Of a stretch of 64,000 nt of DNA, positions 13,085 to 47,741 are shown one piece after another. The notes under the pieces were generated by a model. It did no database searches. It saw nothing but the letters and a program-made list of their open reading frames with translations, and was not told the DNA's origin. The DNA comes from Candidatus Pacearchaeota archaeon CG10_big_fil_rev_8_21_14_0_10_34_76. Lineage in GTDB: Archaea; Nanobdellota; Nanobdellia; Pacearchaeales; GW2011-AR1. The stretch's first letter is position 1; the number at the start of each line of letters is the position of its first letter. The stretch lies in NCBI GenBank assembly GCA_002763075.1, contig PFDB01000010.1:6553-70552 (forward strand), in the 5' to 3' direction. The position numbers and the translations under genes are program-made.

Positions 13085-13624
13085 ATGCCATATGCAGTAA
13101 CACATATATTAGTTCCAATATTGATTGCAGCAATTTTTAGAGATGTAGTAGCAAAGAAAAAATTCTCTCTCCACTATGTTCTTCTAGCAGGCCTAGGTGG
13201 AGTTCTTCCAGACATAGACATCCCAATTTCTATGCTTCTGAACACATTTGGAATAATAAATTGGAATCTCCATAAAACATTTACCCATTCAATATTTTTC
13301 CCATTAATTGTGTTTGCACTATTCCTCATCTTCAAGCCTTTCAAGCTAAATGCAAAAGTCTGTAATATAGGAAAGCACAAGCTCAATCTAAGTTATATCT
13401 TCTTAGCAATTGCTTTCGGAATATTGATTCACTTGATTTTAGATTCATTATTTGGCTCAAATTCATTTCTCTTATATCCCTTCTCAAATTATGATTTCGG
13501 TATGGATTTATTTTCCTACTTTTCATATTCTTGGAACTCTCTTGCAGCACTCCTAGACGGAATTCTCCTTGTAATTTGGATATTATATCTCGAGTTAAAG
13601 CACAAAATCAGTGATTTCATTTAA
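13085..13624 (+). CDS. membrane-bound metal-dependent hydrolase (YdjM/DUF457 family)
   Basis: N-terminal THILVP, LPDIDIP and HKTFTHS motifs within a polytopic membrane protein. Confidence 0.65.
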   Translation: MPYAVTHILVPILIAAIFRDVVAKKKFSLHYVLLAGLGGVLPDIDIPISMLLNTFGIINWNLHKTFTHSIFFPLIVFALFLIFKPFKLNAKVCNIGKHKLNLSYIFLAIAFGILIHLILDSLFGSNSFLLYPFSNYDFGMDLFSYFSYSWNSLAALLDGILLVIWILYLELKHKISDFI

Positions 13625-14036
13625 AATGAAACAAAAAATCCCTCCACAATTAAAAAGATTTGTTCAATACACTGCAATAGGCACAACCACATTTTCTTTT
13701 GATTTAAGTTTACTTTATGTTTTAACTGAATTTTTCGGAGTTTACTATCTTCTTTCTGCAATTCTTTCGTTCATTCTTGCTAACTCTATCAATTACACAA
13801 TAAATAGAAGTTGGGGATTTAAGAAAACAAAACAAACCCTAGTCCGCGGGTATATTTACCTCATGATAATAAACACTGCCAGTTTATTTTTAATAGTCAC
13901 ATTAATGGCAGGGTTAGTTGAACTCTTCTCGTTTGATTATTTAATTGCTAGGATAACTGTAGGAATATTAGTTGGAGGATTAGATTTCATTATGAACTCC
14001 AAGATAACTTTCAAGACTCCAATATTCAAGAAATAA
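13611..14036 (+). CDS. GtrA family membrane protein
   Basis: FVQYTAIGTTTFSFDLSLLYVL ... ANSINYTINRSWGFK, four TM helices, ~140 aa. Confidence 0.75.
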   Translation: MISFKMKQKIPPQLKRFVQYTAIGTTTFSFDLSLLYVLTEFFGVYYLLSAILSFILANSINYTINRSWGFKKTKQTLVRGYIYLMIINTASLFLIVTLMAGLVELFSFDYLIARITVGILVGGLDFIMNSKITFKTPIFKK

Positions 14037-14054
14037 AAAAGTCCTTGGGTAATT

Positions 14055-14315
14055 TTAATAAAACCCTAAAGAGACTCTAGTTCCCAATATGTTCTTCATT
14101 CTTCTCATAACACTATTTGGCAGATAATCAATTATCTTAGCCCTATGCTCTCCCACTTCTGCTCTTGCTTCATAAAATGCGGCATGGATCTCTAAAGAAC
14201 GACCTTCTCCTAGGTTTAGAATAAATCCGTCTATCATCCTAAAATACGTTTCATTTAGCGCATCATAGTCTCTGGTCGAATAAACACGCCTTTCGTTTAT
14301 CATACCATTATTCAT
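14055..14315 (-). CDS. hypothetical small protein
   Basis: 86-aa ORF with no motif. Confidence 0.4.
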   Translation of the reverse strand: MNNGMINERRVYSTRDYDALNETYFRMIDGFILNLGEGRSLEIHAAFYEARAEVGEHRAKIIDYLPNSVMRRMKNILGTRVSLGFY

Positions 14316-14412
14316 CTAAACCATTCTCCTATAATTTAATGTACTTGTAAATTGTTATTTATATAATGTTCGCAAAATGCTTAATCTAATTTCAGTAGTT
14401 AATTTAATTAAA

Positions 14413-14458
14413 TTTCCCAGAGAAAATCGAACCCCCACTATTTGGTGTAAACAATAAC
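14413..14458 (-). repeat. tRNA-Val(UAC) 3'-half-like fragment A
   Basis: Minus sense: GTTATTG-TTTACAC-CAAAT-AGTG-GGGGG-TTCGATT-TTCTC-TGGGAAA. This gives an anticodon loop identical to the tRNA-Val at 18795..18865, 9 nt to a T-arm with a TTCGATT loop, and no 5' half. It shares 18 nt exactly with fragment C and 17 nt with fragment B. Confidence 0.6.
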
Positions 14459-14540
14459 ATGGTTTAACTAAGGAAGAACAATAACATTTTAAATTCTTTA
14501 GTTTTTCAAACTACTACGAACGTATAAAACAAATTAAGGG

Positions 14541-15089
14541 TTATTTAGTTAACTCTTCTGCAATAGATATATAATTTCTGTTCCAGATATCAACATTATC
14601 TTCCTCGTTTGTTTGGGCAAATGTTTTTTCTGAATCTGCTAACATTAGAACTCTATCCCAATTTCTCTCACTACCTTTAATCTTGTTAGATATTTTTAGA
14701 GGCACTTGAAAAACAAATTCTTTAACTTTTCCATTTGGTTCTGCATATGCTGCTGCAACTTCCATGTATGCCGTCCTGTCTTTAGCATTTTTCATTAATT
14801 CCAATAGTTTATCTACTGGCATCTTTCTATTAAAATAATTAGTGTATGGTCCAGGAAAACCAGATAAATGTTTGATGAATAAGCTATGGTCTTCTCTTAT
14901 AGCTAACACATTAAATTCCTTAGAAGCTTGGACTGCAGTAAATTTAGCTATTTCCTTACTTGTATCTGCTTGAATTTCTGGATATTCTTTCGGGATATTT
15001 TTGACTTCTATTCCAAACTTAGAAAAAGCTTTTTGTGCTACAAATATTTTTCCTTTATTTTTCGTTATAAGATAAACTACTTTAGCCAT
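14541..15089 (-). CDS. non-canonical purine NTP pyrophosphatase (Ham1/RdgB/ITPase family)
   Basis: ITKNKGKI ... EIQADTSKEIA ... REDHSLFI ... FPGPYTNYF fits the Ham1 family. TATA-like TTAAAAG (15111-15117) lies 21 nt upstream. Confidence 0.75.
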   Translation of the reverse strand: MAKVVYLITKNKGKIFVAQKAFSKFGIEVKNIPKEYPEIQADTSKEIAKFTAVQASKEFNVLAIREDHSLFIKHLSGFPGPYTNYFNRKMPVDKLLELMKNAKDRTAYMEVAAAYAEPNGKVKEFVFQVPLKISNKIKGSERNWDRVLMLADSEKTFAQTNEEDNVDIWNRNYISIAEELTK

Positions 15090-15157
15090 AACAAATTATA
15101 TAATTTATCTCTTTTAACCCTTTCTAAAACCTCAATGTTTGTTTACAAAAAGATTAT

Positions 15158-15200
15158 TAGAATGGGTTAGTAAAACCATATCATTGGTGTAAACAATAAC
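15158..15200 (-). repeat. tRNA-Val(UAC) 3'-half-like fragment B
   Basis: Minus sense: TATTG-TTTACAC-CAATG forms a complete 5-bp anticodon-arm-like hairpin, followed by a GGTT-TTACT-AACC hairpin. 15184-15200 is identical to 14442-14458. Confidence 0.55.
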
Positions 15201-15246
15201 CTATGTTTCCTAGAATTTTAATAATAATACTTAATTATTAAGCTGT

Positions 15247-15621
15247 TTAGAATGTTTGATCGCCACAAAAATATATCTTTTCATTAATAATTTTATCATC
15301 TTTCCAGTGTTGAACATTAACTCTATAACTTGTTTCCATTACTCCTTCTTTATTTTCAATAGTTATAACCCACTCAGTCATTGAAACATTATCTTCTTTT
15401 CCACCAAAAGTAACAGATTTTATCTCAGCGCTGTTTAATTTTTCAATTTCCTGAAGAAATTTCATCTCCCTTTTTCTATTCTGCTCTTTTCCAGTTATAG
15501 CTCCATTCCCATTTACCTGTATAACTACGTCATCTCCGTAATATTCATCAAATGCCTCTATGATTTTGCCTTCTCTAATCAATGTATTCAGTTTTTCTAC
15601 ATTATTTTTTAATTGCATCAT
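15247..15621 (-). CDS. SnoaL-like / NTF2-fold protein
   Basis: The ORF is listed to 15675, but the ATG at 15621 (MMQLKNN...) has a TATA-like element 21 nt upstream. The ~124-aa alpha+beta pattern (FDEYYGDDVV ... VNVQHWKDDKIINEKIYF) fits a SnoaL-like fold. Confidence 0.55.
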   Translation of the reverse strand: MMQLKNNVEKLNTLIREGKIIEAFDEYYGDDVVIQVNGNGAITGKEQNRKREMKFLQEIEKLNSAEIKSVTFGGKEDNVSMTEWVITIENKEGVMETSYRVNVQHWKDDKIINEKIYFCGDQTF

Positions 15622-15886
15622 TTTTATTCTTGTCCCATTATTATTTATCATGGTCAATAGAATACTTATATCCACGCAGTAGTTAGTTATAATTGTCGTA
15701 TGAGGATGTACTTTATTTCAATAAATCTTTTAATCAATTACCTTAAATGCTGTATAATCGATAAAACTATTACAAATGATTTAGAATACGGGATAAATGG
15801 AATGCATAACCTTTTGTGAGATTTAGGTTATGCGAATAAACTAATGATTGTTTACCTAAACTTATTTTATGAAACCCTACAAATAA

Positions 15887-16024
15887 TTATAAACCTCTCC
15901 CGAAAGAATCAGGTTCTTGTTTAAGCTTTTTTCTTTTCTTTTTGATGTCTTTCCTTAAGGCTTCCTCAGGTGTTTTAGGCAAATATTCCTTTGGGTCTAC
16001 CTTTTTCTGTTCTTCTAAGGCCAT
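15887..16024 (-). CDS. possible 45-aa Lys-rich peptide
   Basis: ATG..TAA ORF MALEEQKKVDPKEYLPKTPEEALRKDIKKKRKKLKQEPDSFGRGL in an otherwise ORF-free gap. No other support. Confidence 0.2.
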   Translation of the reverse strand: MALEEQKKVDPKEYLPKTPEEALRKDIKKKRKKLKQEPDSFGRGL

Positions 16025-16109
16025 TAATTATAAAATAATCCTAATTATATAAATCTGTCTTTTAATTGTTCAATTAATCAAAATTGATAAAACGAACTGA
16101 AGAAACAAA

Positions 16110-16352
16110 TTATCTTAAACTAATGGTCCAATAATCTAGTGCCCAACTATTTTGTATTTTTATCTTTATAATCCGAACATTATTTTTATTTAATCCATAT
16201 TTTTCTAGCAAATAATGTAATTCTCGATAAGCTACATTTTTAGCATGTTCATTGTTATAATTTATTATAACCTCAAATATTTTATTAATATTGCTCACTC
16301 TAGAAATATCTTTTTTTGATTTCTTGTAAATATTATGTGTCAAAACTACCAT
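16110..16352 (-). CDS. hypothetical small protein
   Basis: 80-aa ORF with no motif. Confidence 0.4.
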   Translation of the reverse strand: MVVLTHNIYKKSKKDISRVSNINKIFEVIINYNNEHAKNVAYRELHYLLEKYGLNKNNVRIIKIKIQNSWALDYWTISLR

Positions 16353-16457
16353 TTTTCCTTATTATAATAGTGCATAGAAAAATATAAACTTTTCTATAAT
16401 TACTGGAAATGAAAGCTAAGAAACTTTGGCAATACTACTGTTTTATGTGAGTTAAAT

Positions 16458-16496
16458 GGACATAGGGAGAATCAAACTCCCACTATTTGGTGTAAA
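16458..16496 (-). repeat. tRNA-Val(UAC) 3'-half-like fragment C
   Basis: Minus sense: TTTACAC-CAAAT-AGT-GGGAG-TTTGATT-CTCCC-TATGTCC, a perfect 5-bp T-arm with a 7-nt loop and no 5' anticodon-stem partner. 16479-16496 is identical to 14434-14451. Confidence 0.6.
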
Positions 16497-16544
16497 TAAG
16501 GAAGGGATTTTTCTGGGAGAGAATAAGAAGGAGGCATTATATTT

Positions 16545-16856
16545 TTAGAGATTGTATCTCTCTTCTAAGTTAACTTTGATTTTAGACAGAACGGGATTTC
16601 CAATACTGGTTTTTATCTTTTCAACATAAACATCTGGTAAAATTTTTTCTAAGTATTTTTTTATCTTAGATACGTCCTCTCCAGAGGGAACTGCAAATCG
16701 AACTGTGTTTTCGCTATCTTCCGCATTTTCTACAAGTACATTTCGATTACTCTCTAAACAGAACTCTCTAATTCTTCCTCGCAGCATAACTTGAGTTATA
16801 GATGAAGATTTTGTTTTTACTTCATAAATATCCCAGTTAATAAGAGGTTTTAGCAT
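16545..16856 (-). CDS. hypothetical protein (possibly an acylphosphatase-like fold)
   Basis: 103-aa ORF with TATA-like TTATTAA 21 nt upstream of the ATG. The fold guess rests only on a weak beta-alpha-beta pattern. Confidence 0.45.
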   Translation of the reverse strand: MLKPLINWDIYEVKTKSSSITQVMLRGRIREFCLESNRNVLVENAEDSENTVRFAVPSGEDVSKIKKYLEKILPDVYVEKIKTSIGNPVLSKIKVNLEERYNL

Positions 16857-16948
16857 GAATTATATTAAGTTATATTGTTAATAAATATTATCTCTAAACC
16901 ATTACATGGGAACTTTCATAATAATTTTGATATTATAAAAAAGTTATT

Positions 16949-16990
16949 AGCCTTGGGTGGATAAATCACCTTATCCGTGTAACCAACAAC
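16949..16990 (-). repeat. divergent tRNA-half-like fragment D
   Basis: Minus sense: GTTGTTG-GTTACAC-GGATAA-GGTG-ATTTATC-CACC-CAAGGCT, colinear with fragment B (TTATTAG ... hairpin ... GTGTAA(A/C)CAA(T/C)AAC) with compensatory changes in the hairpin. Confidence 0.4.
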
Positions 16991-17080
16991 TTATGCTGTA
17001 TGACGTAATACTATTCAACTATATATAAAGACAAGGCATGATGTTCACATAGAGTTTTAACTTTTGATCCTATTAACATT

Positions 17081-18775
17081 GTGAAAAATAAAAATAATAC
17101 AAATGATAATGCAACAAAAATAAATCGTACTCCGATTTATATAATTTGTATGCTCTTTATAATTTCTCTTAGCGCAGCACAGGTTTCATCAGAACCAGGA
17201 ATTTATCTTAATGGTACAGGGGAAGTGTTAATTAATGACTCAAATAGTTTAGATGGTTTTTCCAAAGCTACATGGAATATGTGGATTAAACAAGAAGCAT
17301 ACAATAGTAATTCAGGGGTAGTTGGAAAATATGAGGCATCTGCGATGGGTAGATCATATCTTATTAGGAATTCTCTTTCAAATGGAAGTTCTGTTTCAGT
17401 TGCTATTTCCGGTGATGGAACTAATACTGGGCTTTATACAAGTAATTCTATTCTTGCATGTGGCATTCGTGAAAATAATCAATGGACAATGATTACAGTT
17501 ACTTATGATGGTTCTTTAATAAAATATTATAGAAATGGAGTTTTCTGTGACCAAGATAAAACAATAATTCCTTCAATCTATAATTCTATTTCCCCTCTTC
17601 GTTTAGGTGGGGGCAACAATATTTTTTTCAATGGGGGGATAGATGAATTTACATTTTATGATCAATCTCTTTCCAGAGAACAAATAACAAGACTCCATGA
17701 CGAAAGTTTTCATGGAAACAATCTAGGTCAGTCAATTCCAGTTTTAGTATATCATAAAATAGAAAACTCTGCAAATGATGCAATTGTTGTTAGTCCAGAC
17801 CAATTCCAAGCACAGATGGATTATTTGTATAAAAATGAATTTAATACAATTACCTTGCAAAATTATGTTGATTGGAAAAATGGAAATTATGATATGCCAA
17901 AAAAGGCAATCATTATTGTTTTTGATGATGGATTTTTATCAGTTTATGATACTGCAAAACCAATAATGGATAAATATGGTTTTAAGGGCTCAGTTCCAGT
18001 TGTTACAAGGTATGCTTCATTTACAGGAAACAGCTCGGGTTATATGAAATGGGACCAAATAAATGATTTAGCTAATAATGGCTGGAGCATTGAATCTCAC
18101 AGTATAACTCATAGTCATCTACTTACATTAAATGAATCCCAGTTCAGATATGAGCTTTCCTATTCTAAAGAGCTTCTTACTAACAAAACAGGAAATGTTC
18201 CTAATTCATTTGTTTTTCCTTTTCATGAATCAAATGCAAATTATACAAGTATTTGTGGAGAGTATTATGATTTGTGTTGGACACAAGGAAGCTTAAATCC
18301 TACTTATGATTTTAAATCTACTCCCGGAACTGAATATCTCAGTTTAAGAAGAATTAATATTGTGAATATTACCACATTAGAATATTTTGCTAATTACCTA
18401 AGAAGAGATACTAATAAATTTGGAGAATGGAATATGGAAGAAGGAGCTGGAAATACAACAATAGACAGTTCAGGAAATGATAATACTGGTTATCTTTTGG
18501 GCGGAGCTTCATGGTATTCTAAAAACCTCAATTCTACTCTTTCGTCAATATTTGACAAGTTTAAAACACTCTCAGATGATAATAAAATAGAAGATGGTTT
18601 AGATAATATTATAGATAGTGATAAGGGGAAAGCTCCTATAAAATTAGAGAAAGAAAAAACATGGCCTGATAACATGGATATAGAAGGGTATTATTACTCC
18701 ATTCATGATCCTATTAAATTAGAAAAAGAAGATAAAGATAAGGAAAATAAAGGCAAAATTTATACTAAGATATAA
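17081..18775 (+). CDS. secreted/membrane-anchored LamG (concanavalin-like) plus polysaccharide deacetylase (NodB) protein
   Basis: N-terminal hydrophobic helix; LamG-like ITVTYDGSLIKYYRNGVF ... LRLGGGNNIFFNGGIDEFTFYDQSLS; NodB motifs IIIVFDDGFLSVYD and ESHSITHSHL. Confidence 0.8.
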   Translation: MKNKNNTNDNATKINRTPIYIICMLFIISLSAAQVSSEPGIYLNGTGEVLINDSNSLDGFSKATWNMWIKQEAYNSNSGVVGKYEASAMGRSYLIRNSLSNGSSVSVAISGDGTNTGLYTSNSILACGIRENNQWTMITVTYDGSLIKYYRNGVFCDQDKTIIPSIYNSISPLRLGGGNNIFFNGGIDEFTFYDQSLSREQITRLHDESFHGNNLGQSIPVLVYHKIENSANDAIVVSPDQFQAQMDYLYKNEFNTITLQNYVDWKNGNYDMPKKAIIIVFDDGFLSVYDTAKPIMDKYGFKGSVPVVTRYASFTGNSSGYMKWDQINDLANNGWSIESHSITHSHLLTLNESQFRYELSYSKELLTNKTGNVPNSFVFPFHESNANYTSICGEYYDLCWTQGSLNPTYDFKSTPGTEYLSLRRINIVNITTLEYFANYLRRDTNKFGEWNMEEGAGNTTIDSSGNDNTGYLLGGASWYSKNLNSTLSSIFDKFKTLSDDNKIEDGLDNIIDSDKGKAPIKLEKEKTWPDNMDIEGYYYSIHDPIKLEKEDKDKENKGKIYTKI

Positions 18776-18794
18776 TCTGCTTTTTTGTTATTTA

Positions 18795-18865
18795 TGGCCC
18801 GTAGAAGAATCGAACTTCTGCATGCTCGGTGTAAACGAGCCGGTCTACCATTAGCCTAACGGGCC
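18795..18865 (-). tRNA. tRNA-Val (anticodon UAC)
   Basis: 71 nt: acceptor GGCCCGT/ACGGGCC, anticodon arm GCTCG-TTTACAC-CGAGC, T-arm AGAAG-TTCGATT-CTTCT, discriminator A. Confidence 0.85.
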
Positions 18866-18945
18866 TAAGCTCAATATATACTGAAATGAGCATTTTTAAA
18901 TTTCACTATATGAAACTTTAAAAACGTCTGTTTTTATTTCTGACA

Positions 18946-19398
18946 ATGACGAATAAGAGAGATTTAAGAGAACAAGCCAAAGAAAATTTTTATTCAGATT
19001 TGGCAGACAAGATCTATCTTGAGGTGAAAAGAATTGCCCAAGAAAATCCAAACCCTAATTTCAGCAGGGTAACTATCCCAAGAAACGGATACCTTGAATC
19101 ACTAGCCCAGACAGAAGTTATTCAATACGGAGTTCAAGGAATTCTTGGAGAAGCATTTATAGTGGATGAGTCGCAAAGCGACATCACTGTCTGTTTTATG
19201 CCTGGGGCCTTATTCCAGAACTCAATTGGAAGAGACAGTCTTCCAAAGGCAAATTTTCTTCCTATGGGCAAAAAAGCAGCAGATTTGAAAGTACATCATG
19301 CTATGGTAACAGATAAGAGTCATAAACAAAAATTAAAAAACCCGGGATCCTTGCCACCTACACAAAAAACCTTAGAAACAGACTGGGATAATTTCTAA
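18946..19398 (+). CDS. hypothetical protein
   Basis: 150-aa ORF with no motif. Confidence 0.5.
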   Translation: MTNKRDLREQAKENFYSDLADKIYLEVKRIAQENPNPNFSRVTIPRNGYLESLAQTEVIQYGVQGILGEAFIVDESQSDITVCFMPGALFQNSIGRDSLPKANFLPMGKKAADLKVHHAMVTDKSHKQKLKNPGSLPPTQKTLETDWDNF

Positions 19399-19468
19399 CG
19401 TCATAGTTAAAATATCTATAATGTATCTCTAAAAACCTTTAAAAAATGTGAAAAGAGTAAATTATCAA

Positions 19469-27592: not shown

Positions 27593-27744
27593 CCCCTCAT
27601 AGCTCAATGGTTAGAGCACCTGGCTGTAGTCAATATGACTAACGCTGACTATCTCCAAAAGAGAATGGATGAAGCGCGATCAGACCATATTCGCTAGAAT
27701 ATGACAGAACCCGGGTTACCCCAGTTCGATTCTGGGTGAGGGGA
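27593..27744 (+). tRNA. tRNA-Tyr (anticodon GUA) with an 80-nt intron at 37/38
   Basis: Acceptor CCCCTCA/TGAGGGG (the C1-G72 pair typical of archaeal and eukaryotic tRNA-Tyr), D-arm GCTC-AATGGTTA-GAGC, anticodon stem CCTGG/CCGGG, loop CTGTAG|intron 27630-27709|C, T-arm CCCAG-TTCGATT-CTGGG, discriminator A. The intron 3' ACAG pairs with loop CUGU, a 4-bp helix as in a bulge-helix-bulge motif. Confidence 0.85.
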
Positions 27745-47054: not shown

Positions 47055-47741
47055 TTAGCATCCTCCGACCATTGCTCCTCCAGAAGAGCTTTGTCCTTTC
47101 TCTATCCCTCTGTATAGATTAGATGCAAGATTGATATAATCAGTGCTATCTATTCCATTAGCTTCTAACACTTGTGCTTTCTGCTCATGAATCCCTGGGA
47201 AGAATAGAACTTTCCACTTCCCTAATTCCCTAAGTATATCTGCATCGCTCATTTCAGGATTGTTTATCAAAAGATACTTTGCAAGACCCCTCATTGCATA
47301 GCTATGTGCACATCCACAAGCCCTCTCCCCATTTGAGAAGATAATTGATTCAGCACCACAACAATACTCACAAGAGATTGATCCTGCAATCATTATATAT
47401 CTCTCAAGTTGTTCAGCATTCAACTGCAAGTCTTCGTATTCAGAAAGCTTTGCAATTGTAGCATCCGCAAGCCTTGGATTATTTGGAGATACATCATCGT
47501 AGCTAATCCCCATACTTGCTCCATATACTGCAGGGATTCCCTCAGGTATTATTTCTGAAGCAGAAACTGTCCCAACACCTGTAGCAAGTCCTGTAGGCCC
47601 AATAGATGAATAAACCTTTCCTGTATTAAATACAATTACTAATGCAAGAATAGCTATTATTCCTATTTGGACATAAAGCTCTGTCTTTCCGGAGCTGGTC
47701 GATCCTCCTTTCATTTCATTCTCACTTTCGTGTTTTTCCAT
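47055..47741 (-). CDS. membrane-anchored Cys-rich protein ending in MVGGC
   Basis: TM helix, then an ectodomain with SCEYCCGAESIIFSNGERACGCAHSYAMRGL and C-terminal GGAMVGGC. Confidence 0.65.
   Translation of the reverse strand: MEKHESENEMKGGSTSSGKTELYVQIGIIAILALVIVFNTGKVYSSIGPTGLATGVGTVSASEIIPEGIPAVYGASMGISYDDVSPNNPRLADATIAKLSEYEDLQLNAEQLERYIMIAGSISCEYCCGAESIIFSNGERACGCAHSYAMRGLAKYLLINNPEMSDADILRELGKWKVLFFPGIHEQKAQVLEANGIDSTDYINLASNLYRGIEKGQSSSGGAMVGGC

What the first reader, a model, noticed from the sequence alone, without database searches (positions are those of the whole stretch)
14413..18865. Serial tRNA-Val(UAC) 3'-half-like fragments downstream of the intact tRNA-Val: integration scars or tRNA-like 3' elements
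Four intergenic elements (14413-14458, 15158-15200, 16458-16496, 16949-16990) lie on the same strand as, and 3' of, tRNA-Val (18795-18865). Read on the minus strand, each starts in or just before an anticodon loop identical or nearly identical to that of tRNA-Val (TTTACAC; GTTACAC in D). Each continues through a 3' anticodon-stem segment, a short variable region, a T-arm-like hairpin and a 7-nt tail. The hairpins are GGGAG-TTTGATT-CTCCC in C and GGGGG-TTCGATT-TTCTC (with G-U pairs) in A. None has a 5' half or an acceptor partner. A and C share an exact 18-mer, A and B share an exact 17-mer, and B and D are colinear with compensatory hairpin changes. This is the pattern left by repeated site-specific integration into a tRNA gene, which displaces 3' halves and stacks them on the 3' side. 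The ~4.4 kb between them carries cargo-like genes (Ham1, SnoaL-like, small ORFs, LamG-deacetylase), and no integrase is present. Alternatively, fragments A-C each sit 47-83 nt after a minus-strand stop codon and could act as tRNA-like 3' processing or termination elements.
Basis: partly seen in the sequence, partly recalled or inferred. Interest (0 to 1): 0.65.

Follow-up and report, generated by a model that had tools for sequence, protein, structure and literature searches.

The report
tRNA-Val-derived recombination sites bounding gene cassettes
The four repeats are junction sites of a small gene-cassette array that has built up next to a tRNA-Val island in a tiny groundwater archaeon; two still carry decayed copies of the tRNA's 3' half, and related sites in other such archaea point to cassette swapping without any recombinase gene nearby.

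Summary
A, B and C are true paralogues, and D joins the family through bridging copies in other genomes. Similarity to the window's own tRNA-Val is weak. However, A and C match the 3' half of relatives' tRNA-Val clearly: z is 12-14, and a profile built only from relatives' tRNA-Val genes ranks A and C just after the real tRNA-Val and tRNA-Gly. The closest relative genome lacks window 14060-17085 and holds a single site there, ending in its own tRNA-Val 3' 16-mer with one mismatch. A second relative has a toxin-antitoxin cassette between tRNA-Val and a partial tRNA-Val. A third, about 91-97% identical, shares the flanks up to the TTTACAC cores of A and D and then diverges. Across 14 sites the 5' and 3' arms assort independently (r = -0.04). 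I read the elements as hybrid attachment sites of serially inserted cassettes, with the core equal to the tRNA-Val anticodon loop. No recombinase gene was found, and the B-type sites in other genomes are not near tRNA genes. The sites are not integron attC sites, MITEs or tRNA pseudogenes recognised by standard tools. A role in RNA 3'-end processing has no support.

The parts
18795..18865 (-). Intact tRNA-Val(UAC). It is the anchor of the island, and its anticodon loop TTTACAC equals the core of the repeats.
   Evidence: ARAGORN; Rfam tRNA 60.6 bits; 97% identical to the tRNA-Val of relative L052.
17081..18775 (+). LamG / polysaccharide-deacetylase gene, cargo of the tRNA-proximal island segment.
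   Evidence: Pfam. 89% aa identity to the L049 orthologue, against 59-78% for flanking core genes. The gene is absent from L052, L054, L055 and L056.
16933..16996 (-). Site D. Core GTTACAC at 16983-16977. The 5' flank is shared with L049 and with the X7 relative. The 3' arm is a D-type hairpin, GGTG-ATTTATC-CACC.
   Evidence: nhmmer family profile E 6e-13, though D was one of the sequences the profile was built from. Strong hairpin, z = -2.6. Positional orthologue of the L049 site. The X7 contig matches from 16970 upward and then continues as a decayed tRNA-Val 3' half.
16545..16856 (-). Cassette 1: 103-aa ORF of unknown function.
   Evidence: ORF. Homologues lie in ordinary, site-free contexts in other Pacearchaeota.
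16457..16551 (-). Site C. P1-type 5' arm, core TTTACAC at 16496-16490, and a tRNA-Val-like 3' arm with hairpin GGGAG-TTTGATT-CTCCC.
   Evidence: 66-nt repeat with A. Score 35, z = 14 against L049 tRNA-Val. E 0.011 with the relatives' tRNA-Val profile. 5'-arm profile hit, a profile that C helped build.
15247..16352 (-). Cassette 2: three ORFs of 80 aa, 45 aa and 142 aa (the last SnoaL-like).
   Evidence: ORFs; weak SnoaL Pfam hits; absent from L049.
15136..15243 (-). Site B. P3-type 5' arm, core TTTACAC at 15193-15187, and a B-type 3' arm, TGGTT-TTACT-AACC..CTAATAAT.
   Evidence: Exact 17-mer with A. 87-95% identical copies in L016, L035, L038, L033 and L032.
14541..15089 (-). Cassette 3: Ham1-family (ITPase-like) gene.
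   Evidence: Pfam PF01725, E 7e-25. Replaced by an AAA_14 ATPase gene in the close relative L062.
14397..14508 (-). Site A. P1-type 5' arm, core TTTACAC at 14451-14445, and the decayed tRNA-Val 3' half GGGGG-TTCGATT-TTCTC-TGGGAAAT.
   Evidence: Score 34, z = 12 against L049 tRNA-Val. E 0.005 with the relatives' tRNA-Val profile. The 3' arm and downstream flank are about 97% conserved in L062, whose 5' arm is of another type.
14055..14315 (-). 86-aa ORF between site A and the conserved GtrA gene. It travels with A's 3' arm.
   Evidence: ORF. 85% identical in L062, in the same position. Absent from L049.
13611..14036 (+). GtrA-like gene, the conserved chromosomal flank at the distal edge of the island.
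   Evidence: Pfam. Syntenic in L049 and L062. In L049 its stop codon lies 3 nt from the tRNA-Val 3' remnant.

Best explanation
A-D are hybrid attachment (att) sites at the junctions of a tandem array of small gene cassettes. The array grew by repeated site-specific recombination at the distal att site of a tRNA-Val(UAC)-anchored island in a Pacearchaeota/Woesearchaeota-like DPANN archaeon.

Each site has three parts:
- an interchangeable 5' arm of about 40-60 nt;
- a near-invariant block, TTGTTTACACCAA. Its heptamer TTTACAC equals the tRNA-Val anticodon loop and is flanked by short inverted repeats that mimic the anticodon stem, the usual layout of a tyrosine-recombinase core;
- an interchangeable 3' arm with a hairpin.

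The 3' arms of A and C are decayed tRNA-Val 3' halves displaced by earlier insertions. B and D carry cassette-borne arm types that circulate among related archaea.

Shown: the family and its spread; the tRNA origin of the A and C arms and of the L049, L054 and X7 sites; absence of the array from the closest relative; breakpoints at or next to the core between close relatives; independent assortment of the arms.

Inferred: catalysis by a recombinase acting in trans; a circular cassette intermediate; the exact crossover point, which lies somewhere between the heptamer and the 3' side of the hairpin; and whether the sites are active now.
For: 1. Family. A-C are paralogues. Copies 82-95% identical over 45-82 nt occur in at least 7 unrelated contigs. 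Typically two copies lie on the same strand 0.5-1 kb apart (L025, L033, L035, L038). Between them sit TA pairs, an MNT-type nucleotidyltransferase operon, DUF3850 and small ORFs.
2. tRNA origin. A and C against L049 tRNA-Val give z = 12-14. The profile from relatives' tRNA-Val genes hits A and C. L049 17531-17546 is the tRNA-Val 3' 16-mer with one mismatch; 0 of 100 shuffles reach that. L054 carries tRNA-Val, a PemK/RHH cassette, then a partial tRNA-Val in which positions 8-60 are 100% identical to the first copy. In the X7 relative, 'D' continues as TCAATAGTTCAATTCTTTTCAAGCAACCAT.
3. Occupied against empty site. Window 14060-17085 has no counterpart in L049, where LamG and GtrA are separated by one site. 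L052 has none. The interval between thermosome and YdjM/VIT1 differs in every relative. GC is 0.29-0.30 there against about 0.34 elsewhere.
4. Exchange at the core. L062 is about 97% identical from A's 3' arm through the 86-aa gene. It switches to a P2 arm and an AAA_14 ATPase cassette at the heptamer. The X7 contig matches tRNA-Val, LamG and the D core plus 7 nt, then diverges.
5. Modularity. 5'-arm and 3'-arm similarities are uncorrelated over 91 site pairs, r = -0.04.
6. Constraint. The L016 and L032 sites are 89% identical while the orthologous cassette beside them is 67% identical.
Against: No integrase or recombinase gene was found in the window or next to the arrays in L025, L033, L035 and L046.

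No excised circle or empty-site read could be examined, because only contigs are available.

The crossover point is not pinned down. In L054 and L049 the identity or native part begins at the T-loop rather than the anticodon loop. L016 and L025b share both flanks but differ in the hairpin. D and its X7 counterpart share 7 nt beyond the heptamer.

B-type sites in other genomes have no tRNA within 3-8 kb.

The tRNA identity of the A and C arms rests on about 71% identity over 45 nt.

The 103-aa cassette gene sits in ordinary, site-free contexts elsewhere.
Confidence: 0.65

Rival explanations
1. The elements are dead scars only. Ordinary integrase-bearing elements (viruses or plasmids) integrated into tRNA-Val one after another. 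Their integrases and most genes have since been deleted, leaving decayed att repeats with no present function. Array differences between strains then arise by homologous recombination or deletion between the repeats.
For: A and C are decayed tRNA halves. No integrase remains. Stacked partial tRNAs and degenerate elements are known in tRNA-linked islands (10.1101/2020.12.28.424599; PMC9897764). The arms are AT-biased and decaying, with G>A changes in the L049 and X7 copies.
Against: B-type sites are 82-95% identical across unrelated genomes and contexts, with no tRNA nearby. They are more conserved than the adjacent orthologous genes, 89% against 67%. The units between sites are only 0.5-1.3 kb and look like intact single transcription units. 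Arms assort independently around an invariant core. Shared repeats of 13-18 nt are short substrates for homologous recombination.
Confidence: 0.17
2. The elements act at the RNA level. They would be tRNA-like 3'-end processing or termination modules for the upstream mRNAs, or small RNAs with their own promoters.
For: A-C lie 47-83 nt after same-strand stop codons. Each has a hairpin, and several end in T-runs. TATA-like boxes occur in the 5' arms. D folds significantly, z = -2.6.
Against: In L016, L025b and L032 the site is antisense to both neighbouring genes. Folding of A, B, C and L016 is no better than shuffles, z from +0.7 to -0.8. There are no Rfam hits. The TATA-like boxes sit at different distances in the three arm types. 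An RNA role does not explain arm shuffling or strain breakpoints at the core. No transcript data exist.
Confidence: 0.07
3. The elements belong to another class of repeat: miniature transposable elements (MITE, or IS200/IS605-type ends that insert at TTAC), or canonical integron attC sites in a cluster lacking an integrase (CALIN).
For: The layout is integron-like: same-strand arrays with one short transcription unit per interval, and TA cassettes. Archaeal integrons exist in the GTDB phylum Nanoarchaeota (PMC9668308). The block contains TTAC.
Against: No RYYYAAC...GTTRRRY pair occurs anywhere in 14000-17100 on either strand; 0 were found against 0.8 expected. There is no IntI. The motif is absent from the archaeal integron paper's supplementary files held as text. 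A MITE would move as one unit, yet the arms are uncorrelated. No terminal inverted repeats or target duplications are shared by members. No Y1 transposase or TnpB was found among the neighbouring ORFs scanned against Pfam.
Confidence: 0.05

Closest known systems
Integrative elements that target tRNA genes and leave partial tRNA direct repeats (archaeal examples such as PYG1 in Pyrococcus yayanosii, PMC9897764; SSV-type 'gene capture' in Sulfolobus, from my own knowledge)
   Same: There is an intact tRNA at one end and same-orientation copies of its 3' part further downstream. The DNA between them is variable and absent from relatives. The core coincides with the anticodon loop, or possibly the T-loop, of the tRNA.
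   Different: The units are 0.5-1.8 kb rather than about 9-23 kb, and none carries an integrase. Identity to the resident tRNA is only 9 nt. Two of the four sites carry arms not derived from the tRNA. The same sites also occur away from tRNA genes.
Tycheposon-shaped genomic islands of Prochlorococcus (10.1101/2020.12.28.424599)
   Same: Successive integrations at one tRNA site push older elements deeper into an island, leaving scattered partial tRNAs and degenerate elements. The cargo consists of niche or defence genes in a streamlined genome that lacks other mobile elements.
   Different: Tycheposons encode their own tyrosine or serine recombinase and replication genes, and no such module is seen here. 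These cassettes are much smaller. The host is a DPANN archaeon.
Integron cassette arrays and CALINs, including archaeal integrons (PMC9668308)
   Same: Tandem, same-orientation recombination sites separate single short transcription units. TA cassettes are prominent. Sites are more alike within a lineage. The arrays lack an adjacent integrase.
   Different: The defining attC R''/R' core sites are absent. The conserved block is a tRNA anticodon-arm mimic. The junctions are modular, with arms from two neighbouring cassettes. No IntI or attI is present.
pdif modules and Xer-exploiting elements (IMEX) of bacteria (from my own knowledge; not tested here)
   Same: Small modules, often TA pairs, are bounded by short recombinase sites and moved by a recombinase that the module does not encode.
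   Different: Those sites are dif-like 28-bp XerC/XerD sites on plasmids or at the chromosome terminus. Here the sites are tRNA-derived, and no link to XerA has been shown.

Membership tests
tRNA-targeted site-specific integration (attL/attR) | Intact target tRNA gene at one boundary | tested here: met
   tRNA-Val(TAC) at 18795-18865.
tRNA-targeted site-specific integration (attL/attR) | Same-orientation repeat of the tRNA's 3' part at the distal boundary or boundaries | tested here: met
   A and C give z = 12-14 against a relative's tRNA-Val and E 0.005 / 0.011 with the relatives' profile. Clean cases exist in L049 and L054. B and D share only the 9-13-nt core block.
tRNA-targeted site-specific integration (attL/attR) | The bounded DNA is absent from related genomes (empty site) | tested here: met
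   Window 14060-17085 is missing in L049. L052 has tRNA-Val followed by one ORF and then YdjM.
tRNA-targeted site-specific integration (attL/attR) | An integrase is encoded within or beside the integrated DNA | tested here: not met
   No Phage_integrase or other recombinase hit was found in the window ORFs scanned against Pfam or covered by precomputed hits, nor beside the arrays in L025, L033, L035 and L016.
tRNA-targeted site-specific integration (attL/attR) | Strain-to-strain breakpoints fall at the att core | tested here: met
   L062 and the X7 contigs diverge from the window within a few nt of the heptamers of A and D.
Integron attC array (CALIN) | R'' (RYYYAAC) and R' (GTTRRRY) inverted core sites 50-140 nt apart | tested here: not met
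   0 occurrences on either strand of 14000-17100, against 0.8 expected.
Integron attC array (CALIN) | Tandem same-strand sites separating short ORF cassettes | tested here: met
   Four sites in the window. Two each in L025, L033, L035 and L038.
Integron attC array (CALIN) | A score above threshold with the IntegronFinder attC covariance model, and IntI-dependent recombination | not testable with these tools
   The model is not available here and no experiment was possible.
tRNA gene or pseudogene | Recognised by a tRNA covariance model or ARAGORN | tested here: not met
   No Rfam RF00005 hit on A-D at E<=10. ARAGORN finds none.
MITE / IS200-IS605-type end | The element moves as one unit (arms co-vary) with terminal repeats or a transposase partner | tested here: not met
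   Arm similarities are uncorrelated, r = -0.04. No Y1_Tnp or TnpB was found among the neighbouring ORFs scanned against Pfam.
Structured cis-acting RNA (terminator or 3'-processing element) | Folding more stable than shuffles, and fixed orientation relative to the flanking gene | tested here: not met
   z from +0.7 to -0.8 for A, B, C and L016; only D reaches -2.6. The site is antisense to its neighbours in L016, L025b and L032.

The most novel reading that the evidence does not exclude
Pacearchaeota/Woesearchaeota-type DPANN archaea may possess an integron-like gene-cassette system of their own. Promoter-bearing mini-cassettes of 0.5-1.3 kb (TA pairs, nucleotide-sanitising enzymes, small unknown ORFs) would carry a modular attachment site whose core mimics the tRNA-Val anticodon arm. 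A recombinase encoded elsewhere, perhaps the host XerA-like enzyme, would move them. They would insert first into tRNA-Val, then into displaced copies and look-alike sites across the chromosome.
Probability: 0.33. Interest if true: 0.75.

Novelty: new variant of a known kind. Interest (0 to 1): 0.6.

Why it matters
DPANN archaea have tiny genomes and few recognised mobile elements, and how they gain accessory genes is largely unknown. These sites mark a hot spot that differs in every relative examined. They suggest a cheap way to shuffle single-gene modules, including toxin-antitoxin and defence-adjacent genes, without each module carrying its own recombinase. If confirmed, this would be a second cassette-capture system in Archaea besides integrons. 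It would also show a tRNA anticodon arm becoming a portable recombination site. On the practical side, the site profile could be used to find flexible gene pools in fragmented metagenome bins, and it may explain why assemblies break there.

Tried and rejected
- Chance resemblance. Rejected for A and C. For B and D taken alone it remains possible beyond the core.
- Homology of the 5' arms to tRNA-Val promoters or 5' halves, which would make the sites decayed whole tRNA genes. A 5'-arm profile hits no tRNA-Val locus at E<=10. Pairwise scores are no better than shuffles.
- Canonical attC sites. None found, and the motif is absent from the archaeal integron paper's supplements held as text.
- C/D-box sRNA, split-tRNA half gene and origin-recognition-box ideas. 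The motifs do not fit on inspection.
- Micro-ORF reading (MLLFTPNSGG...). The start codon is not conserved, and conservation runs past the stop.
- Viral origin. Four IMG/VR scans with A/C-type, B-type and tRNA-Val-type patterns found nothing.
- Cassette mobility through the 103-aa gene. Its homologues sit in ordinary contexts with no sites. No cassette is shared between the window and the other arrays.
- Assembly breaks at about 15282-15322. These come from a high-copy related SnoaL-like segment in the community, not from the sites.
- Covariation counting for the hairpin. Abandoned because MAFFT put the three hairpin types in different registers.
- RNA evidence. No run is available.

Full report
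**Setting.** The window is archaeal, about 34% GC. It carries a thermosome gene, ribosomal proteins L10e and L35Ae, and an intron-containing tRNA. The closest thermosome homologues, 70-78% identical, come from Pacearchaeota / 'Nanoarchaeota' metagenome-assembled genomes (MAGs) from groundwater. Contigs from several groundwater assemblies are 99.9-100% identical over the region. tRNA-Val(TAC) lies at 18795-18865 on the minus strand. The 14-18 kb stretch has 29-30% GC, against about 34% elsewhere.

**The observation.**
- A and B share an exact 17-mer. A and C share a 66-nt repeat at 71% identity that includes the 18-mer.
- A profile of A, B and C finds no further copy in the 64 kb.
- None is called a tRNA by ARAGORN, or by the Rfam model at E<=10.
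- Against the window's own tRNA-Val the similarity is marginal, and unrelated window segments score as well.

On the window alone, the tRNA link would be weak.

**The elements belong to a wider family.** A degenerate core pattern was scanned over one genome per species and over JGI metagenomes. Most returns were chance hits, plus a set of true homologues: L016/L046 (a Woesearchaeota MAG), L025, L032, L033, L035 and L038.
- A profile then found second, same-strand copies 0.5-1 kb away in L025, L033 and L035. BLAST found one in L038.
- L025a joins the B-type core to a D-type hairpin, which brings D into the family.
- The DNA between and beside the copies encodes a ParE/antitoxin pair, an MNT-type nucleotidyltransferase operon, a DUF3850/ASCH protein and small unknown ORFs.
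- No tRNA gene lies within those loci, and no integrase was found among the ORFs scanned there.
- The conserved unit is about 100-115 nt, longer than reported, because a 5' arm of 40-60 nt lies upstream of the block TTGTTTACACCAA.

**Relatives restore the tRNA link.** I used thermosome homologues as anchors to fetch the syntenic region from six relatives. The frame CBS - thermosome - [variable] - YdjM/VIT1 - nucleotidyltransferase - L35Ae - L10e is conserved. The variable part holds tRNA-Gly and tRNA-Val and differs in every genome.
- **L049, the closest relative.** The order is tRNA-Val, two extra genes, LamG-deacetylase, one site, GtrA. Window 14060-17085 has no counterpart there. The single site shares its upstream flank with D. 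It ends in GATTTTCTTCGGGGCC, the 3'-terminal 16-mer of L049's own tRNA-Val with one mismatch; none of 100 shuffles reaches that. This remnant lies 3 nt from the GtrA stop codon.
- **A and C.** Both align to L049's tRNA-Val from the anticodon loop through the T-arm at about 71% identity, z = 12-14. A profile built only from six relatives' tRNA-Val genes finds, in the whole window, tRNA-Val, tRNA-Gly, then A (E 0.005) and C (E 0.011), ahead of the genuine tRNA-Ala.
- **L054.** A PemK/RHH cassette lies between a good tRNA-Val and a partial copy. The partial copy lacks the 5' acceptor strand, is 100% identical over positions 8-60, and has an L049-type 3' end.
- **L052.** Its tRNA-Val is 97% identical to the window's. 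It has no LamG, no GtrA and no sites.
- **LamG-deacetylase.** It is 89% identical between the window and L049, while neighbouring core proteins are 59-78% identical. This fits transferred cargo.

**Exchange happens at the core.** A 2024 groundwater run (X7) holds a close relative.
- Its contig L062 is about 97% identical to the window from A's 3' arm through the 86-aa gene into GtrA. At the heptamer it switches to a different 5' arm, the type seen in L033a and L032. Upstream lies an AAA_14 ATPase gene instead of Ham1. L062's copy reads CACCGAAT where A reads CACCAAAT, which is closer to the tRNA's CACCGAGT.
- A second X7 contig matches tRNA-Val, LamG and the D core plus 7 nt. It then continues as TCAATAGTTCAATTCTTTTCAAGCAACCAT, a G-to-A-decayed tRNA-Val 3' half.
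- Across 14 sites the 5' arms fall into about four groups and the 3' arms into three: tRNA-like, B-type and D-type. The two similarity matrices are uncorrelated, r = -0.04. Examples are D and L049e at 82% against 47%, A and L025b at 78% against 53%, and B and L038a at 62% against 95%.

Independent assortment around an invariant block is what tandem cassettes joined by site-specific recombination should produce. A transposed repeat unit should not.

**The sites look constrained.** The L016 and L032 sites are 89% identical, while the orthologous operon beside them is 67% identical.

**Mechanism proposed.** The heptamer TTTACAC flanked by ATTG/CAAT has the geometry of a tyrosine-recombinase core: inverted binding sites around a 7-bp overlap. 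It coincides with the anticodon stem-loop of tRNA-Val, a classical integration position (general knowledge). I infer the following sequence.
1. An island (LamG and neighbours) first entered tRNA-Val and displaced the native 3' half to the GtrA side.
2. Later cassettes entered at the displaced copy, where no functional tRNA has to be rebuilt.
3. Each junction became a hybrid of one cassette's 5' arm and the next cassette's 3' arm.

A's 3' arm, next to the 86-aa gene and GtrA, would be the oldest tRNA-derived piece.

Three things remain open: the enzyme, a circular intermediate and present activity. The crossover point is uncertain within about 45 bp. In L054 and L049 the native part starts at the T-loop. 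L016 and L025b share both flanks but differ in the hairpin.

**What argues against.** No recombinase gene is present in the window or beside any array. Only contigs, not reads, were available for the population data. B and D cannot be shown to derive from a tRNA. The 103-aa cassette gene sits in ordinary, site-free contexts in other genomes.

**Rivals.**
- *Dead scars of once-complete elements.* This explains A and C. It does not explain the cross-genome conservation and modularity of the B-type sites.
- *RNA-level roles.* These fail on orientation and on folding statistics for A-C. They could not be tested with transcripts.
- *Canonical attC sites.* Excluded by the absence of the R''/R' core motifs.
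- *MITEs.* Excluded by the uncorrelated arms.

**Comparison with known systems.** Partial tRNA repeats left by integrated elements are well documented in Archaea (PMC9897764). Stacked partial tRNAs in islands are known from Prochlorococcus tycheposons (10.1101/2020.12.28.424599). Integron arrays exist in Archaea (PMC9668308). The present case works like the first two and is organised like the third. It differs in three ways: the cassettes are very small and carry no recombinase, the junctions have modular arms, and the tRNA-mimicking site has spread to loci without a tRNA. I rate it a new variant of a known kind, of moderate-to-good interest.

Noticed in passing
window 27593-27744 (+): The Rfam tRNA model matches a 152-nt stretch, a tRNA gene with an intron of about 80 nt. 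ARAGORN did not report it. A matching T-arm fragment at L049 5274-5296 suggests the relative has the same gene, also missed.
   Followed up: partly
window 15158-15545: The 3' part of the SnoaL-like gene has 2-5 times the contig depth of its surroundings in run X1, with many variant letters. Several assemblies break at about 15282-15322. A related high-copy sequence from other community members shares this segment.
   Followed up: partly
window 18866-19459: Contigs in five runs join tRNA-Val directly to tRNA-Gly, with 83 other letters between them where stated. The 150-aa ORF (18946-19398) is therefore absent from related organisms, a second variable spot beside the tRNA pair.
   Followed up: no
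window 17081-18775 vs L049 15710-17398: LamG/polysaccharide-deacetylase is 89% identical in protein to the closest relative's copy, well above the neighbouring core genes (59-78%). This suggests recent transfer between lineages.
   Followed up: partly
window 16545-16856; L059 8001-8312; L060 4639-4950: The 103-aa protein of unknown function is a widespread small Pacearchaeota family. In L059 and L060 it sits between ribonucleotide reductase and dCTP deaminase, with thymidylate synthase and DHFR nearby. In the window it lies within 2 kb of a Ham1 ITPase, hinting at a role in nucleotide metabolism. Some hits are labelled Patescibacteria or 'bacterium'.
   Followed up: no
L035 3009-9549: The two-site array in L035 lies next to a complete type I restriction-modification system (HsdR, HsdS, HsdM) and a PD-(D/E)XK nuclease, so it sits at the edge of a defence island.
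   Followed up: no
L025 8019-11726: An elongation factor 2 gene is interrupted by an intein with a LAGLIDADG homing-endonuclease domain.
   Followed up: no
window 47193-47224 (-): A T-arm-like hairpin, GGGAAG...CTTCCC, inside the 228-aa ORF scores weakly with the tRNA-Val profile (E 1.5). It looks like chance within coding sequence.
   Followed up: yes
window 14475-14511 and 16935-16986: Short contigs in runs X1, X2 and X7, one of them part of a 13-kb contig at depth 34, match only the P1 5' arm or the D-type core and hairpin, with unrelated flanks. One contig joins a P1-like arm to a D-type core. Many more family members therefore exist in these communities than the exact-pattern scans recovered.
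   Followed up: partly
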